Shown: positions 1 through 6,911 of the stretch, one piece after another
How the letters are laid out: every line of letters begins with the position of its first letter
Numbering within the stretch: the stretch's first letter is position 1
IMG/VR virus record: IMGVR_UViG_3300029703_000118
Location: 1 to 9,464 of that record
Direction: 5' to 3' (one strand)
Origin: a virus
Lineage: Duplodnaviria; Heunggongvirae; Uroviricota; Caudoviricetes
DNA: 9,464 nucleotides
The notes under the pieces: generated by a model
Told to the model about the DNA's origin: nothing
The model's database searches: none
What the model saw: only the letters and a program-made list of their open reading frames with translations
Translations under genes and position numbers: made by a program

Positions 1-73
1 ATGTTTAATTTACACTCTTTTTATGCAATTATTCTTTCGACTATAAAAACACCACTATCTCATGTATGACCTT

Positions 74-100
74 GGGGAGCGTGCCGTCTCCCCGTTTTTT
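74..100 (+). terminator. Terminator-like hairpin A on the plus strand
   Basis: A 6-bp stem GGGGAG/CTCCCC with an 8-nt loop, then G plus six T. It follows a plus-strand reading frame that enters from the left edge and stops at TGA 67-69. Confidence 0.5.
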
Positions 101-148
101 CGCTTACAGTTTCATGACGACTTTCAGTTTCAGGAATCAGCAGTTACC

Positions 149-175
149 ATGCAATACGAAAATTCTGTATTGCAT
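149..175. promoter_or_regulatory. Perfect 9-bp inverted repeat ATGCAATAC-N9-GTATTGCAT; candidate operator or RNA hairpin
   Basis: Read directly from the sequence: the two arms are exact reverse complements separated by 9 bp (GAAAATTCT). Confidence 0.4.
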
Positions 176-243
176 CCGCGCCCTCATCTCAATATCTTTG
201 TCGCCGGATAAAAATAACTATCAACCACAAGTATCATGCTCTC

Positions 244-269
244 GGGGAGCACGCACTCCCCAGTTTTTT
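244..269 (+). terminator. Terminator-like hairpin B on the plus strand, paralogous to hairpin A
   Basis: A 6-bp stem GGGGAG/CTCCCC with a 6-nt loop, then AG plus six T. Its flanks share short blocks with hairpin A (ATAAAAA, ACTATC, GTAT upstream; CTT..ACAG downstream). Confidence 0.5.
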
Positions 270-372
270 ATCTTTGACAGGGGTGAAGGAGGCCGTTGCA
301 TCTCCTTTAATTATCATTGCCAGATTATTTCCTCGACCTGAGTATTCTTTATTTAGCCATAGCTTTGTAGCA

Positions 373-398
373 AGGGGCTGGAGCGCCCCTCTTTTTTT
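373..398 (+). terminator. Terminator-like hairpin C on the plus strand, abutting the tfa-like stop codon
   Basis: A 6-bp stem AGGGGC/GCCCCT with a 6-nt loop, then C plus seven T (392-398). On the minus strand the hairpin is not followed by a U-tract, so it is oriented to stop transcription entering from the left. Confidence 0.5.
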
Positions 399-979
399 CA
401 CCTGTCAGCCATGCCGACCTTATACGCCAGTATAGCTTCCGCATCATCCAGCGCTTCAATCTCTTTTTTCATCGTGCGCTGTCTGACATGAATTTCCAGA
501 CCTTTGGTAAACATCGCCTGCTCTGCAGCAGCACTCAGAGCAATCAGTGTTTCAGCGTCCATCGGTACGTCATTATTGTCCGCATCCGTCCAGAAAAACT
601 GCTCCGGCAGTTTCCCCGCTTTCGCTGCCGCCACCGACGGCTCAAGACGCGTCTGCGTTGACTTCCCGTAGTCCCATTTACGCCCATTGTGCTCAAACGT
701 GTAGTTCGCCGCTTCCATCGCATTACGCCAGGCGTTGATCCCGGCGGTTTTGAGTTCTCTGGCTTTTTCCGGGCTGATGGATGGCTGTACATATTCTGCA
801 ATTTCACCGGCCTCTCCTCTCAGACAAGCGGCATAAATATCCCGCCCGTATGCTTCGGTATCGCTGGCTGTTGCAGTGAAAGGAACCGCCTGCTCAATGT
901 GCTCAAACTTCACCATGCAATTGACAGCAGTGTGATCTTTATCTGCCCATTGCGGATTGCTTATTTTTTCCACATTCAT
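398..979 (-). CDS. 193-aa protein immediately downstream of the side tail fibre gene; tail-fibre assembly chaperone or tip protein by position only
   Basis: ORF 398..979 on the minus strand with an ATG at 979..977. A Shine-Dalgarno-like AGGAGA lies 5 nt upstream, and the start is 15 nt after the stf stop, consistent with co-expression. The sequence looks like a globular protein. I do not recognise similarity to lambda Tfa, so the function is inferred from position alone. Confidence 0.7.
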   Translation of the reverse strand: MNVEKISNPQWADKDHTAVNCMVKFEHIEQAVPFTATASDTEAYGRDIYAACLRGEAGEIAEYVQPSISPEKARELKTAGINAWRNAMEAANYTFEHNGRKWDYGKSTQTRLEPSVAAAKAGKLPEQFFWTDADNNDVPMDAETLIALSAAAEQAMFTKGLEIHVRQRTMKKEIEALDDAEAILAYKVGMADR

Positions 980-994
980 GTCATCTCCTGTCAG

Positions 995-2548
995 TCAGTA
1001 TGCGCGCTGGAACAGCCCGATGCCTTCATTGTCATTTGTCGACGTAATTTCATTACACACCATCCATGAGCCCGGAACTGAGGATAGTCTGCCGTCAATG
1101 CCATCGGTGTTAGCTTTCATATAGTTCCCGTTTTCGTCTTTGATTAGGGCGCATCGCTTAAGGCGTGAACCCTGTACAGTTTCTCCTGGCTGATAGGTTC
1201 TGCCGATGTCGGTTGCATACGGGATTATTGCGGCAATAATGTATGTTCCGATGCTGTAAATTTCCCCGGGTACCAGCCTTCCGGTTGGCCCTTGTGGTCC
1301 CTGTGGTCCGGGTTCACCTGTCGGGCCCTGTGGACCTGTCGGGCCCTGTCTTCCTGTTTCTCCCTGCAAACCTCGTGGCCCCGTTTTACCCGCAGGACCT
1401 GCCGGACCAACCGGCCCCGGAACACCCTGTGCCCCCGCTGGTCCCCTTTCACCTCGTGGCCCTGCCGGACCTGCCTTACCTTCCGCTCCGGCGGTACCAT
1501 CCTTTCCTGCGGGGCCTGCATCACCTTTGGGACCAGCTGCACCAGCCGGTCCCCGTGGGCCTGCGGGCCCCACTGCACCAGGTGCGCCAGGTTCCCCCCT
1601 GTCCCCCTTCGGTCCGGGGACTGCTGCCCGGGTTGCTGCCTCTTCTGCCTTCGTTTTTGCTGCCTGCACTTCTGCCATTACCGCTTTCACAGCCTTTGGG
1701 GTTGCCGCTTTTGTTTCATCATCGCTGTTGGTATCGCTGCTCAGCTGTACAACACCTTTCTGTGATGTGCTGGCATCCGGAACACTGGCGACACTGCCTG
1801 CGGGACCCGCAGGACCTGCGGGGCCGGTTTCTCCCCGAGGGCCTGCGGGACCTGCCGGACCTGTTGCGCCGGGTTCACCTTTATCCCCTTTCGGGCCGGT
1901 TTGCCCTGCCGGACCCTGTGGTCCGGGTGGTCCGGCCTCTCCACGTGGGCCGGTGTCACCTTTCGGCCCCGGCGGTCCGCCCGGGTCACCTTTATCGCCC
2001 TTCGGTCCCTGTGGACCTGTTTCTCCCCGTTCTCCCTTTGGCCCCGGCTCACCTTTTGGTCCGACCGCCCCCGTTGCCCCGGCTGGTCCCTTTGCCCCTG
2101 TGGCACCCTGTGGACCTGTGTCCCCCTTCTCGCCCGCCGGTCCCCGGGCATTCTCTGCCCGTTTCTTCGCTTCCTCTGCACTCGCCGCCGACGCTTCAGC
2201 ACGCTTCAGGATTTCCGCTGCCACCGCTTCCAGCTCTGCAAGCGCTTTCGGGTAATACTGCGCCTCATCCTGTTCCATCAGAAATTTATTCAGCGTTCCC
2301 GGCTCAGAATCCGCCTTCACCAGAATGTCACCCACATACGACGGGGCGCACCCTTCCGTGTTCAGCGTCACCCGGTACCACCCCGGCTCCACATCAAAAC
2401 TGTAACTGCCGGTTTCCTCCGGCTGCCCCTGCGCCACCGTGGTGACTATCACTGTCTCTGTGGTGCGTCGCGCTTTCAGCTCTATGGTGCATCCCGGCAC
2501 CGGCTTCCCGGTGCCGTCCTTCAGCACGCCCGATATTCTGACTGTCAT
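995..2548 (-). CDS. stf: Side tail fibre protein with collagen-like (Gly-X-Y) repeats, 517 aa
   Basis: The N-terminus [17 protein letters not shown] resembles the lambda Stf N-terminus as I recall it. Two long Gly-X-Y tracts are separated by a linker containing [26 protein letters not shown], which resembles a conserved phage-fibre motif. A GGGAG Shine-Dalgarno lies 7 nt upstream of the ATG at 2548..2546. This architecture matches the prophage-encoded collagen-like tail fibre proteins described in E. coli. Confidence 0.85.
1280..1615 (-). repeat. Collagen-like block 2 inside stf: 38 consecutive Gly-X-Y triplets (aa 312-423)
   Basis: Direct reading of the translated ORF: Gly at every third residue with Pro, Ala, Lys, Glu and Arg at X/Y. 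The DNA is a GGN-CCN triplet repeat. Confidence 0.9.
1796..2143 (-). repeat. Collagen-like block 1 inside stf: Gly-X-Y triplets (aa 136-251) with a single one-residue register break (GDPGGPPG)
   Basis: Direct reading of the translated ORF. Gly periodicity is 3 throughout, apart from one Gly-Gly step at aa 190-191. Confidence 0.9.
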
Positions 2549-2699: not shown

Positions 2700-3299
2700 T
2701 CAGAACCGGTATCCGGTGCCGACAATAAACGCCTCCGTACGCCAGTCACCACGTCCTGAGGCTTCATAAGCCAGGTCGACCACGATATTTTCTGTCGGGT
2801 TAATCTGCACGCCTGCACTGTATGTCAGTGCGGTATGGCTGCGGCGTCCGCTGTCCGAACGGGTCAGGTGCTCCTGCTTTTTACCCTCATCTGACGTGAG
2901 GGTCACATAATCACCGGCAAAAGACGACACCCGGGCATACGACACTCCGGCCAGCGCATAAGCGCTGAACCATTCATTCACGCGCACAGATGGCCCCGCC
3001 ATCACGCTGAACCAGCGGTTACGCACAGAATCCTCATGCCAGCGGGTATCGTTGTAGTGCGTTTTTTGCTCACCTTCAGCATTGGCATAACTGAAGGACG
3101 TAATCAGCCCCAGCGTGTCCGTAAACTCATAACGGTATTTCACGTTAATCCCGTTCAGATCATCGCTGCCTGGCATATCAGTATGGGTCTGAAGATACCC
3201 GGCGCTTAGTGTGGACTGATGCTCTGCTGCGCTCGCTGGCGTACCAGCGGCAACCAGCCAGACGACTGCGGACAGAATAACAGCACATAATTTACGCAT
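2700..3299 (-). CDS. lom: Lom-like outer-membrane beta-barrel protein (Ail/Lom/OmpX/PagC family), 199 aa, lysogenic-conversion moron
   Basis: An N-terminal signal peptide (MRKLCAVILSAVVWLVAAGTPASA) and a C-terminus ending in GYRF, typical of outer-membrane beta-barrels. Motifs GINVKYRYE, SVMAGP and DWRT...FIVG match lambda Lom as I recall it. It occupies the lambda position between J and stf. GAGG lies 5 nt upstream of the ATG at 3299..3297. Confidence 0.9.
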   Translation of the reverse strand: MRKLCAVILSAVVWLVAAGTPASAAEHQSTLSAGYLQTHTDMPGSDDLNGINVKYRYEFTDTLGLITSFSYANAEGEQKTHYNDTRWHEDSVRNRWFSVMAGPSVRVNEWFSAYALAGVSYARVSSFAGDYVTLTSDEGKKQEHLTRSDSGRRSHTALTYSAGVQINPTENIVVDLAYEASGRGDWRTEAFIVGTGYRF

Positions 3300-3366: not shown

Positions 3367-6300
3367 TCAGCTAATCGTGATGCCTGCAGTGGCTTTCTTC
3401 ATCACCACAACCAGCAAATCGCTGATACTTGCTGTGGGATACCAGTTATTTACCAGCCATGCTGACACCGAAAACTCCAGTGTCATGTGACCGTGACCGG
3501 CAGGCATATCAATAACGCCACTGTAAATCAGCGTATTATCCAGCGCGGTACGGTTATAAATTTCAGCACCGTTTTTCCGCACTATCAGACGGCATGAGGA
3601 GTAAATATCAGTATGCTCTCTCTCATGCTTAGCGCCACTGAATGCCACCGCCGGAATAACAATCTGTCGGTCAAACGGCTGATCGTCATAAACCCTGACG
3701 GTAATGGTCCCTGATGGCCACCGCTCCGGTGCACGGGAGTCCCGGGGGAAAGCTTTGCCCACTGTTTTAACGAGATCGCCTTCAATCTGGTTCGCGGACA
3801 GTTTTCCCAGAACCCGACAGTTCTCGTTAATCGTGACGTTGTTGAGCGTCCCGGAATTCGCATTCACGTTACCGCTGATATCAGCATTTCTTGCGGTCAG
3901 CCTGCCCTCCGGCGTCAGGGAAAACGTCGGGGGATTGCCGGACGAGGTGATACTCACCGCAAACAGCCGCTTCAGGAACACATCGTTCATGAACAACTGA
4001 TTCCCCTGCGCCACAAATAACGGCGTGGTGTTGCCGTCCTCCGGGTTAATCATCGCAATACGGTCAGCCAGCAGCAGTATGTTGCTCAGGGGCTGGCCAT
4101 CAGTATCCTCAATCCCCGCTCCAATACCGGCAACATAGGGTATGCCATTTTTTGTTTTCTGTACCTTCAGCATGTAAAGTGCAGCAAGGTCATCATTTGT
4201 GTCCTTCTGCACGCGCTGTATCTGCTGTATGGTGGCGCTCTGGTCTTCCAGCGTTTTACTGACCGTCTGCGTGATTTCATTGCGGGTTTCTGTGATGGTG
4301 GTCTGCATTTCCGCCATCTCGTCCTTCAGCTGACTGTTGTCAATCTCTGCCCACAGCGCCTCTGCCAGATGCGTTTTTCCTATCTTTTCCCGGAAAAGTT
4401 CCAGATAGCCCGCAGCATCATTGCTGGGCTGCCCTCTGGCTTCCACAAAAGCAGATTTACCCACCAGGTTGACGCTGCGCACATAAAACCAGAAATCCTT
4501 TCCGGGCTTAATGTGCGGACCGGAGACACTCCACTGACTGCCGGTCCCCAGATAACGGGCAGAGGTTTCCACCTGTGCGGCGTCTGCAATTTTTGCCTCC
4601 GAAAACCAGAACTCAAACTGCACCGTCGGGTCATACACCGCAAGACGCGGTACCGCCGTTATCTGAAAATACCCCGGCGTCAGCTCAATGGTGGCCGGTG
4701 CTGCAGGCGCATTAATCCGGAACGTGGTGGTGGCGGGTTCGCCCTGCTGGCCATAGCTGTTAATCGCCCTGACCGTCAGGGTGTATTCCCCGAGAGGCAG
4801 GCCACTGAAACGGTGCTCCGTATCGGCAGTGATGGCGGTGGTCAGCAGGCGGCTGTTCTCACCGCTTCCACTGGTCAGGCGCAGACTGAAGCGCACGCCC
4901 TTCACCACCCGCGGCGTGTCCCATTTCGCCAGCGCCAGATACTGGCTGTCAGCCGCGCTCACCTCCACCGTCAGGTGCTGTACTGCCGGTGGGATAACGC
5001 TGTTCAGGGTGCCTGACTGCGGCTCAAAGCGGGCTCCGTTATCCACAATGGCTTCTTTTTCCGGTACGTGCTGCACCGCCGTGATGGCAAAGGTGCCGTC
5101 CGTGTTTTCCCGGATGGCCACACAGCGGAACAGGCGACGGCGCAGTGACGGCAGGGAGAGTCCCCACACCCCGTATGTCTCCACACCATCAGGCAGGGTA
5201 CTGACCTGTATCCGGTCCGGCGCGGGGTGTGCGGTAATGTCCACACTCACCGGCTTACCGCTGCCGTTAATCAGGTTCACCGTCGATGTCCCCGTCTCCG
5301 GGAGTGTCACCTCACGGTCCAGCGTCAGGGTGCGGGTGGCAGCATCAATGGACAGGACACGTCCGCCGGTCATAGTCCCGGCATAGTCGTTATCACAGAT
5401 TTCAATGATGTCACCGGGTGTGTGCCGCAGCCCCTGAGACCCGAGCGTGAAATCCACCGTCTGCGTTTCCAGCAGTTCGGTCTTTATCACCCACAGTCCG
5501 GCACGGTGGGCCTGACCGCGGCTGGTACAGCCGAACGCGTCCATCTTCAGCAGGTTGCGTCCGTAGCGCAGTATGGCTTCCGGGTCTTCCACCAGTTCCG
5601 TGGAGGTCTGCCAGCCGTTCTGCGGGTCGGTGTAATTCACCTCCACCGCCGTGTGCCGGTCCTTCAGGGCACTGAAGCTGTAGCGGAATCCCACGCCGTT
5701 ATCATCCACCACATCGCTGTTGGTGTACGGCCACACCACATCCGACGGGCGGTCCTGAACAAACGTCAGCGTCTGACCGTTCCATACCGGCATACAGCGC
5801 ATCGCAGAGCAGAAATCACTGAGAACGTCCCACGCCTTACGCTGTTGTGCCAGGTACGCATTAAAGGTCATCCGCGGCTCGGTCCCCCCGAAACCATCCG
5901 GGACCGTCTGGTCGCAGTACTGCCCGATGGCATACAGCGCCCACTTGTCCACATCCGCCGCCCCCAGACGTTTTCCCATGCCGTAGCGCGGGTGAGTCAG
6001 CATGTCCCACAGGCACCAGGCCGGGTTGTTGCTGTATGCCGGTTTCAGACTGCCGTCCCAGATACCACTGTACGTGCGTTTTTCCGGGTCATAGTTTGAC
6101 GGCACCTGGATGATGCGACCGCGGATATGGTAGTTCACCGTCATCTGCTGACCACCAAACTGCTCCGCATCCACCTGCATCCCCACAATGGCCGTGTTCG
6201 GGTAGCACTGTTTCACATCGATGATTTCGGTGTATGACGACCACAGCGTTCTGTTCTGCAGCTGGTCCGTGGTGCTGTCCGCCGTCTCCCTGACCATCCG

Positions 6301-6837
6301 GATGTTAAAGGGGCGGGGAGGCAGATTATCCAGAATCACCGACGCAAGGAACTGTGAGGTGGTCTTGCCGTTAATGGTGACATCCTTTTCCGTCACCCAG
6401 TTACCGTTACGCTGTAACTGAATCAGCAGACGGACAGAGGACGGATTACGGTCACCCTTTGACGTGGTCTCCACCAGTGACTGCACCCCGAAGGTCACCC
6501 GCAGGCGGTCAATGTTCGCTGACGTAATGGTGCGTGTTACCGGTTTTGCCCTGGTCACTTCGACACCCAGTACAGTTTCAGAGCCGGAGGACTCAAAGCC
6601 TTCCGGTGGTGTCTGCTCCTGCTCCCCGGCACGCCAGACCGCGGTCACACCGTGTATCACGGGATTACCGTCCGTGTCCGTCAGCGGGGTTTTGTTCACC
6701 AGAATACTCTGCAGGCCTTTCACCGGGCCTTCTATCGGTCCCTCACCAATCGCATCAATCACGCTCATCATCTGCGTGGATTTGAGATTATCCTTCACCT
6801 CACGAGGCGTGTGTGCCTTACCGCCACCTTTACCCAC
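3367..6837 (-). CDS. J: Tail tip / host-specificity protein J (central tail fibre), about 1156 aa from a GTG start
   Basis: The ORF is homologous along its length to lambda J as I recall it (for example [63 protein letters not shown] and [18 protein letters not shown]). I place the start at the GTG at 6837..6835, which gives an N-terminus (M)[12 protein letters not shown] matching lambda J MGKGSSKGHTPRE and is preceded by a GGAGAGGGGG Shine-Dalgarno. The TTG at 6882 listed in the ORF track lies inside the upstream terminator. Confidence 0.93.
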
Positions 6838-6878
6838 TCGATCCCCCTCTCCTGTCTGATGTCTGAATTTGTTTATGC

Positions 6879-6911
6879 CCAAAAAACAACAGGCACCCCG
6901 GAGGGTGCCTG
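6879..6911 (-). terminator. Strong intrinsic terminator in the I-J spacer (minus strand), just upstream of the J start
   Basis: On the minus strand a perfect 9-bp stem (CAGGCACCC/GGGTGCCTG) with a 4-nt loop is followed by UUGUUUUUUGG. Confidence 0.7.

What the first reader, a model, noticed from the sequence alone, without database searches (positions are those of the whole stretch)
398..979. Protein in the tfa position does not resemble lambda Tfa
The 193-aa protein is coupled to stf (15-nt gap, good Shine-Dalgarno) and sits where lambda carries tfa, but I see no similarity to lambda Tfa as I recall it. It may be a different class of tail-fibre chaperone, or a distal adhesin that binds the short Stf C-terminus. 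Either would affect host range.
Basis: inference. Interest (0 to 1): 0.5.

Follow-up and report, generated by a model that had tools for sequence, protein, structure and literature searches.

The report
DUF4376 tail-fibre chaperone, not lambda Tfa
The small gene after the side tail fibre gene of this E. coli lambda-like prophage is not a lambda-type Tfa but belongs to the DUF4376 family, whose members in marine and Campylobacter phages have been shown to be tail-fibre chaperones, so it is an ordinary member of a second known chaperone class.

Summary
A 193-aa ORF (398-979, minus strand) follows stf after a 15-nt spacer containing AGGAG. It has no detectable similarity to lambda Tfa by Pfam, BLASTP or profile-profile comparison.

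The protein is not unknown. Residues 73-183 are Pfam DUF4376 (E 3.7e-20). It is about 94% identical to ORF-191 of the P-Eib phages, and RefSeq annotates it as a DUF4376 protein. DUF4376 proteins encoded after fibre genes were needed for fibre function in Alteromonas phage V22 (gp27) and in Campylobacter CJIE1.

The protein has two modules. Residues 1-70 always travel with the fibre tip. In five related prophages, DNA identity is lost somewhere in the distal part of stf and resumes at window 770 (four loci) or 739 (one), that is at codon 70-80. In L016 the swapped block is exactly 771-1504. The same N-module occurs elsewhere fused to the C-terminal half of true Tfa (Caudo_TAP) or to Phage_tail_APC, again next to fibres ending ...GTWR...LFQRI.

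Best reading: the N-module docks on the Stf tip and the helical DUF4376 module drives assembly. The adhesin reading is weakly supported. This is a new member of a known kind, of low to moderate interest.

The parts
398..979 (-). 193-aa ORF, a DUF4376-family protein (the ORF-191 of the P-Eib phages)
   Evidence: Pfam PF14301 E 3.7e-20; PHROG 1141 E 5e-79; 94% identical to ORF-191C/E; RefSeq label 'DUF4376 domain-containing protein'.
771..979 (-). N-terminal module (codons 1-70): three strands plus a helix; proposed adaptor specific for the fibre tip
   Evidence: AF2 model with E3-11, E18-25, E32-37, H43-53. It co-segregates with the fibre-tip family in 35/35 and 21/21 loci. It is 48% identical to Pbunavirus LMA2 gp45 and 53% identical to the N-terminus of P0224, a Caudo_TAP hybrid.
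431..763 (-). DUF4376 domain (residues 73-183): helical body with two short beta-hairpins; proposed oligomerisation and assembly module
   Evidence: HMM positions 2-102 of 106. (H70-90, E93-97/E100-104, H106-120, E129-131/E137-139, H142-176). It stays 91-94% identical in prophages with unrelated tips.
980..994 (-). 15-nt stf-ORF spacer with Shine-Dalgarno AGGAG (989-985)
   Evidence: Read directly.
995..2548 (-). Side tail fibre Stf, 517 aa: phage_tail_N, collagen repeats, Phage_fiber_2, and an unassigned C-terminal tip of about 95 aa ending ...[27 protein letters not shown]
771..1504 (-). Exchangeable host-range cassette: about 170 distal Stf codons, the spacer, and ORF codons 1-70. The limits 771-1504 are those seen in L016; in the other loci only the proximal edge (770 or 739) is sharply defined.
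   Evidence: L016 is 99.3% identical over 2577-1505 and 98.3% over 770-1, with no similarity in between. The 770 breakpoint recurs in L018, L019 and L031; in L017 it is at 739.
373..390 (+). GC-rich hairpin just past the ORF stop codon; its T-run lies on the plus strand, not on the gene's strand

Best explanation
The ORF encodes an intermolecular chaperone for the side tail fibre, of the DUF4376 class (V22 gp27 type). It is translated right after Stf from the same late transcript. Its N-terminal module of about 70 residues docks on the C-terminal tip domain of Stf, the family that ends ...PG[ST]W...LFQR. Its helical DUF4376 module self-associates, probably as a trimer, and brings three Stf chains into register from the distal end. 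It then leaves the fibre or stays only loosely as a transient cap.

Shown here: family membership, gene position and coupling, the two-module architecture, the genetic linkage of the N-module with the fibre tip, and the exchange of modules with true Tfa proteins.

Inferred: physical binding, trimerisation, the requirement for Stf folding, and release from the virion.
For: 1. PF14301 matches at 72.8 bits against a cutoff of 25, over residues 73-183. V22 gp27, an experimentally shown fibre chaperone, has the same layout, with DUF4376 at 87-187 of 195 aa directly after its fibre gene. The pairwise BLASTP E-value is 8e-5.

2. Experiments on family members: V22 gp26 binds its host only when co-expressed with gp27 (PMC7289586). 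The CJIE1 H-fibre needs the downstream DUF4376 gene (PMC7882524). The authors' multimer models for A5 and V22 show trimeric caps (PMC10579305).

3. The gene is translationally coupled to stf.

4. The N-module family and the fibre-tip family pair perfectly in 56 loci, 35/35 and 21/21. Within the family, tip identity correlates more with N-module identity (Spearman 0.80) than with C-module identity (0.58).

5. The mosaic breakpoint lies at window 770, codon 70, in four loci. This coincides with the interdomain linker of the AF2 model (pLDDT 91.7).

6. The same N-module is fused to Caudo_TAP HMM positions 62-131 in P0224 (E 6.8e-13) and to Phage_tail_APC in P0265 (E 2.8e-22). Their upstream fibres end ...PAGSWKCMG...TLWQRIA and ...SGTWRALG...TLFVRIS, like the Stf here. 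The Pbunavirus pair gp44/gp45 shows the same association.

7. Conversely, the DUF4376 module is found fused to a P2 gpG-like N-half (P0093: 48% identity over 85 aa, E 4e-24).

8. This mirrors the established Tfa logic of a variable N-domain that binds the fibre and a conserved C-domain that multimerises, seen in Pam3 gp25 (PDB 7YPX) and TfaMu (PMC9608196).
Confidence: 0.72

Rival explanations
1. The protein stays on the fibre as a cap or accessory virion component. It folds with the fibre but remains at the Stf tip in released particles, where it masks or modulates receptor binding. This is the transient-cap idea proposed for A5 gp9, and TfaMu behaves similarly.
For: A5 gp9 and some V22 gp27 co-purify with their fibres, and the authors propose a cap role (PMC10579305). 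TfaMu stays bound to the Mu fibre (cited in PMC7289586).
Against: The database names are untested labels. The E217 virion reconstruction lists 19 built proteins without the small protein encoded after the fibre gene, although the distal fibre was not resolved (PMC10329688). The Tfa-type chaperone Pam3 gp25 was absent from virions by mass spectrometry (PMC9608196). V22 gp27 separated from the fibre on size-exclusion chromatography (PMC7289586).
Confidence: 0.15
2. The protein is a distal adhesin of the gp38 type. It binds the Stf C-terminus and itself carries the receptor-binding surface that sets host range.
For: It has the position and size of T2/S16 gp38-type adhesins. Some records annotate homologues as tail fibre protein.
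Against: There is no gp38-family Pfam hit and there are no glycine-rich or hypervariable segments (sequence). The only variable part, residues 1-70, co-varies with the fibre tip, while the rest is 91-94% identical among prophages with unrelated tips. That is the opposite of what an exposed receptor-binding surface would show. The model is mostly helical. In Pbunavirus PE1 a receptor-range mutation (T896I) lies in the fibre tip itself (PMC12635225). Four plaque-forming PhiR12 isolates match only from residue 22 onward, with two match places per record, and in PhiR12_2 an IS is seen splitting the gene; they still plaque on K-12 or C.
Confidence: 0.06
3. The gene is cargo unrelated to the fibre, for example part of the downstream Eib/YadA-like lysogenic-conversion region, and only happens to sit after stf.
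For: It was first described as ORF-191 upstream of the eib genes. Its 3' half and the downstream intergenic region form one conserved block.
Against: It is translationally coupled to stf. The N-module co-segregates with fibre tips in phages that have no eib genes, including Pbunavirus and metagenomic contigs. Family members have been shown to act on fibres (PMC7289586, PMC7882524).
Confidence: 0.03

Closest known systems
Alteromonas phage V22 gp27 and A5 gp9 (DUF4376 tail-fibre chaperones; PMC7289586, PMC10579305)
   Same: Both carry a Pfam DUF4376 domain at the C-terminal end of a protein of about 195 aa, encoded immediately after the fibre gene. Both have a helical body with beta-hairpins (one search compared with the papers' description). 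BLASTP E-value is 8e-5 over the last 66 residues.
   Different: The N-terminal parts are unrelated and the fibres are unrelated: the V22 fibre is a beta-helical, lectin-headed myovirus fibre, whereas this one is a collagen-repeat lambdoid Stf. No experiment exists for the E. coli protein. The hairpins here are short.
Lambda Tfa, P2 gpG and Mu U (Caudo_TAP, PF02413) and Pam3 gp25
   Same: Same gene position and size. Same logic of a variable N-module that tracks the fibre tip plus a conserved C-module. The window's N-module also occurs on Caudo_TAP C-halves (P0224), and the DUF4376 module occurs on gpG-like N-halves (P0093).
   Different: No Caudo_TAP match. hhalign probability is 7%. The protein lacks the C-terminal W-x2-Y...WP-x-P motif. 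TfaMu (5YVQ) and 7YPX do not appear among the fold matches. Mu U, Mu U' and P2 G score only Caudo_TAP and not DUF4376, contrary to a statement in PMC7882524.
ORF-191 of the P-EibA/C/D/E prophages of E. coli ECOR-9 (AF151674 and related records)
   Same: 94-95% identical for C, D and E and 76% for A. The location is the same, upstream of an Eib/YadA-like gene.
Pbunavirus (PB1-like) small protein encoded after the tail fibre gene (LMA2 gp45)
   Same: The N-terminal 61 residues are 48% identical (E 1e-14). Its upstream fibre ends ...PTGTWRCMGYILNRDGTNPDSATLFQRVT, resembling the Stf end.
   Different: It is 142 aa and has no DUF4376 or any other Pfam match in its C-part. It belongs to a myovirus with a 964-aa fibre.

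Membership tests
Caudo_TAP / lambda Tfa-P2 gpG family (PF02413) | Match to the PF02413 profile at or above its gathering score | tested here: not met
   No hit at E<=1. Controls score well: lambda Tfa 147.6 bits, Mu U 127, P2 G 130.7.
Caudo_TAP / lambda Tfa-P2 gpG family (PF02413) | Detectable sequence or profile homology to lambda Tfa, P2 G or Mu U | tested here: not met
   BLASTP gives only a 12-aa match at E 0.039 against lambda Tfa and nothing against P2 G. hhalign probability is 7%.
Caudo_TAP / lambda Tfa-P2 gpG family (PF02413) | Conserved C-terminal helical region ending W-x2-Y-[RS]-x-[LV]...WP-x-P | tested here: not met
   The protein ends ...DDAEAILAYKVGMADR. The motif is visible in alignment A2.
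Caudo_TAP / lambda Tfa-P2 gpG family (PF02413) | Gene immediately downstream of the fibre gene, about 175-195 aa, with a variable N-module and a conserved C-module | tested here: met
   This is a functional resemblance, not evidence of membership.
Caudo_TAP / lambda Tfa-P2 gpG family (PF02413) | Fold like TfaMu (5YVQ) or Pam3 gp25 (7YPX) | tested here: not met
DUF4376 tail-fibre chaperones (PF14301; V22 gp27 type) | PF14301 match above its gathering score, located C-terminally | tested here: met
   72.8 bits against 25, residues 73-183 of 193. V22 gp27 has it at residues 87-187 of 195.
DUF4376 tail-fibre chaperones (PF14301; V22 gp27 type) | Encoded directly downstream of the receptor-binding fibre gene | tested here: met
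   15-nt spacer after stf. The same arrangement is seen in 56 related loci and in V22.
DUF4376 tail-fibre chaperones (PF14301; V22 gp27 type) | Alpha-helical body with protruding beta-hairpin(s) | tested here: met
   AF2 model at pLDDT 91.7 with helices 70-90, 106-120 and 142-176 and hairpins 93-104 and 129-139. The comparison with the paper's description (PMC10579305) is qualitative. BFVD matches to DUF4376 proteins reach E 3e-7.
DUF4376 tail-fibre chaperones (PF14301; V22 gp27 type) | Needed in co-expression for a functional fibre | not testable with these tools
   This requires expressing Stf with and without the ORF.
DUF4376 tail-fibre chaperones (PF14301; V22 gp27 type) | Homotrimer, or a 3:3 complex on the fibre tip | not testable with these tools
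gp38-type distal adhesins (T2, S16) | Glycine-rich motifs framing hypervariable receptor-binding segments; match to the gp38 family | tested here: not met
   No such Pfam hit. No such segments in the sequence. The C-module is nearly invariant across different tips.
Intramolecular chaperone domains (T5 pb1, K1F endosialidase) | Fold match to 4UW8 or 3GW6; C-terminal fusion to the fibre with an autoproteolysis site | tested here: inconclusive

The most novel reading that the evidence does not exclude
DUF4376 and the Caudo_TAP / Phage_tail_APC C-terminal regions may be unrelated but functionally interchangeable assembly modules. They recombine freely with a shared pool of tip-specific adaptor N-domains. 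The true host-range cassette of these phages would then end inside the chaperone gene, at the interdomain linker (window 770, codon 70), not at the end of the fibre gene. If so, fibre retargeting would need to move only the tip plus about 70 codons of the next gene.
Probability: 0.5. Interest if true: 0.45.

Novelty: new member of a known kind. Interest (0 to 1): 0.3.

Why it matters
It settles the annotation. Lambdoid E. coli prophages use at least two unrelated chaperone classes after stf, and this window carries the DUF4376 type. Public records label homologues inconsistently, as 'tail fiber protein', 'tail fiber assembly protein', 'hypothetical' or 'DUF4376'.

The practical point is the cassette boundary. 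The unit that recombines is the distal Stf plus the first 70 codons of the next gene. This matters for predicting host range from prophage sequence and for engineering Stf swaps, where the chaperone's N-module must be moved along with the tip.

The reciprocal hybrids with true Tfa parts give a simple, testable argument that the two C-modules do the same job.

Tried and rejected
1. PDB sequence search found only chance matches, E 0.9 or worse.

4. The AF2 model of the Stf tip (118 aa) had pLDDT 35.7 and is unusable. Its alignment was nearly invariant.

5. BLASTP of Stf against the Pbunavirus fibre found nothing. A tip HMM gave only 11.7 bits, so that link rests on the shared terminal motif plus the shared N-module.

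6. BLASTP of the second tip family against P2 H, Mu S and lambda orf-314 found nothing at E<=1e-3. Only a motif-level resemblance (ITG...RP[ILV]Q...G[ST]xW) is visible.

7. NCBIfam gave no hit. Rfam gave nothing in the window.

8. The lambda Tfa homologue search returned only close relatives of at least 78% identity, so the Tfa profile used for hhalign is shallow, at 10 sequences.

9. Folding of the intergenic region 1-400 gave z -1.87, which is not informative.

Full report
**What is there**

The window is the distal tail region of a lambda-like E. coli prophage, with all genes on the minus strand. The order is M-like, L, K (C40 peptidase), I, J (3367-6882), lom (2700-3299), stf (995-2548, 517 aa) and the target ORF (398-979, 193 aa). 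Stf carries the prophage tail fibre N-terminal domain, collagen repeats and a Phage_fiber_2 repeat. The stf stop codon (995-997) and the ORF start (977-979) are separated by 15 nt, CTGACAGGAGATGAC on the mRNA, with AGGAG 5 nt before the ATG.

**Is it unlike lambda Tfa? Yes.**

- The ORF gives no Caudo_TAP hit even at E<=1. Lambda Tfa, Mu U, Mu U' and P2 gpG score 127-148 bits on that model.
- BLASTP against lambda Tfa gives only a 12-residue match (E 0.039 for the single comparison). Against P2 gpG it gives nothing.
- A profile of 84 diverse relatives compared with a Tfa profile by hhalign gives probability 7%.

**What it is**

Residues 73-183 match Pfam DUF4376 (PF14301, E 3.7e-20, 72.8 bits against a cutoff of 25). 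The best PHROG is 1141, labelled 'tail fiber protein'. The protein is 94-95% identical to ORF-191C, D and E of the P-Eib prophages of ECOR-9. In a near-identical chromosome region, RefSeq labels it 'DUF4376 domain-containing protein', followed by a gene with a YadA C-terminal domain (Eib-like).

The family is large. It has 1283 representative clusters at E<=1e-3 in the 1.84-billion-protein library. BFVD fold matches to DUF4376 proteins come from Bacillus, Synechococcus, Pseudomonas and crAss-like phages.

Three papers tie such proteins to fibres:
- V22 gp27 is required in co-expression for the gp26 fibre to bind its host, and it separates from the fibre on SEC (PMC7289586).
- A5 gp9 and V22 gp27 are modelled by their authors as trimeric helical bodies with beta-hairpin tentacles that cap the fibre tip (PMC10579305).
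- The CJIE1 H-fibre needs its downstream DUF4376 gene (PMC7882524).

V22 gp27 has the same layout as the window protein, with DUF4376 at 87-187 of 195 aa directly after the fibre gene. The pairwise E-value is 8e-5.

**Anatomy and how it probably works**

The model has a small N-module (strands 3-11, 18-25 and 32-37, helix 43-53) and a linker with the lowest confidence (61-70). The helical DUF4376 module follows, with helices 70-90, 106-120 and 142-176 and two short hairpins.

An alignment of E. coli relatives shows an almost invariant C-module joined to at least three unrelated kinds of N-terminus. I fetched 80 related viral loci and extracted each protein with the end of the upstream fibre ORF. 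The findings were:

- In the 56 loci with an intact upstream fibre, the N-module family and the fibre-tip family pair perfectly, 35/35 and 21/21.
- Within the window's family, tip identity tracks N-module identity (Spearman 0.80) more than C-module identity (0.58). Loci L016, L017 and L018 have C-modules 91-94% identical to the window, but N-modules only 27-39% and tips only 25-38% identical.
- At the DNA level, L016 is 99.3% identical to window 2577-1505 and 98.3% identical to 770-1, with no similarity in between. The same 770 breakpoint recurs in L018, L019 and L031, and L017 breaks at 739.
- Window 770 is codon 70, the interdomain linker.

So the unit that is exchanged is the distal Stf (about 170 codons in L016), the spacer and the first 70 codons of this ORF. 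The loci are related to one another, so the counts overstate the number of independent events. The recurrent breakpoint in loci carrying three different cassettes is the stronger evidence.

**Link to true Tfa proteins**

The N-module is not confined to DUF4376 proteins.
- P0224 (134 aa) is 53% identical to window residues 1-68 (E 3e-28). Its C-half is Caudo_TAP, HMM positions 62-131 (E 6.8e-13).
- P0265 carries the same kind of N-module followed by Phage_tail_APC (E 2.8e-22).
- On their contigs, both follow fibre ORFs that end ...PAGSWKCMGASSNKDERTLWQRIA and ...LSGTWRALGRTNRRPFNTRSRATLFVRIS.
- These ends resemble the Stf end here (...[27 protein letters not shown]) and the Pbunavirus fibre LMA2 gp44 (...PTGTWRCMGYILNRDGTNPDSATLFQRVT). 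The downstream LMA2 gp45 shares the N-module (48% identity, E 1e-14) but has no DUF4376.

In the other direction, the common 223-aa E. coli DUF4376 proteins (for example P0093) have an N-half 48% identical to P2 gpG residues 26-110 (E 4e-24). They give a sub-threshold Caudo_TAP hit to HMM positions 2-57.

The two chaperone classes therefore exchange modules in both directions, and the N-module goes with the tip whichever C-module it carries. This is the same logic shown structurally for Tfa-type chaperones, where a variable N-domain holds the fibre and a conserved helical C-domain trimerises (Pam3 gp24-gp25, PDB 7YPX, and TfaMu; PMC9608196). By analogy I infer that the N-module docks on the Stf tip and the DUF4376 module multimerises. 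Neither step is shown here.

**Adhesin or chaperone?**

Several observations argue against an adhesin:
- There are no gp38-like features.
- The non-tip-linked part is nearly invariant among prophages with different tips.
- The fold is helical.
- In Pbunavirus PE1 a mutation that changes LPS recognition lies in the fibre tip itself (PMC12635225).

PhiR12_2, a temperate phage recorded with K-12 MG1655 as host, has this gene split by an insertion sequence. PhiR12_1, PhiR12_2_star and PhiR12_4 match only from residue 22 onward, with two match places per record, which suggests the same disruption. The gene is therefore dispensable for plaque formation on laboratory hosts. That is expected for a side-fibre accessory gene and does not discriminate strongly between the readings.

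A lingering cap role, as proposed for A5 gp9, cannot be excluded.

**Comparison and novelty**

The protein fails every sequence and fold criterion for Caudo_TAP and meets the testable criteria for the DUF4376 chaperone family. It works like a Tfa but is not one. The class has been described, and the protein is already labelled DUF4376 and known as ORF-191. I found no functional study of the E. coli lambdoid members in the library searched. I rate it a new member of a known kind.

The statement in PMC7882524 that Mu U carries DUF4376 is not reproduced: Mu U, Mu U' and P2 G hit only Caudo_TAP.

The most interesting by-products are the breakpoint inside the chaperone gene and the reciprocal Tfa/DUF4376 hybrids.

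**Prevalence**

At megablast stringency, 141 of 5426 complete E. coli genomes match the ORF, with a median of 3 and up to 8 places per genome. Only 29 genomes match over the full length. In the sampled rows the partial matches fall in the 3' (DUF4376) part of the gene, consistent with the mosaic structure.

Noticed in passing
window 1-397 (hairpins at 73-94, 244-261, 373-390): The intergenic stretch between the ORF and the downstream Eib-like gene holds three GC-rich hairpins, each followed by a T-run on the plus strand, opposite to all genes in the window. The scan of window 1-1100 found 7 terminator-like sites, all on the plus strand, against 1.0 +/- 1.0 in shuffles. The stretch is 99.5-99.75% identical in L001, L008, L016 and L019. 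No Rfam hit, and the fold z-score is only -1.87. Function unknown.
   Followed up: partly
L004 (PhiR12_2, PV340550) 6314-9481; also PhiR12_1, PhiR12_2_star and PhiR12_4: In PhiR12_2 the homologous gene is split by an insertion sequence (transposase plus ATP-binding helper), leaving a 41-aa fragment and a 172-aa fragment. The other three isolates match only from residue 22 onward with two match places per record, which suggests the same disruption but was not inspected. All are recorded with K-12 or C as host. This is a natural knockout that could be compared with PhiR12_5.
   Followed up: partly
L001 4508-5590 (NZ_CP145698), downstream of the window's left end: In the near-identical chromosomal copy, the next gene after the ORF encodes a protein with a YadA C-terminal domain (Eib-like immunoglobulin-binding adhesin), followed by two small ORFs and a DinI-like gene at the prophage end next to yecD/aspS. 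The window therefore probably belongs to a P-Eib-type prophage.
   Followed up: partly
proteins P0228 and P0242: The same fibre-chaperone N-module (about 56% identical over 60 aa for P0242) is fused to a DUF4145 domain in proteins of 234-253 aa, an unexpected partner for a tail-fibre adaptor. Their genomic context was not examined.
   Followed up: no
alignment A3: One of the 84 DUF4376 representatives also matches XkdW (E 1.6e-10), a protein family of the Bacillus PBSX phage-like element. This is another fusion partner for the DUF4376 module.
   Followed up: no
window 998-1290 (Stf C-terminal ~95 aa): The Stf tip has no Pfam assignment and only 25 close homologues in the 5.8-billion-protein collection, all E. 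coli. Yet it shares a terminal motif (G[ST]Y...PG[ST]W[RM]xC...[LI]FQR[AIV]x-stop) with the fibres of many other prophages, two metagenomic contigs and Pbunavirus phages. This looks like an undescribed tip-domain family.
   Followed up: partly
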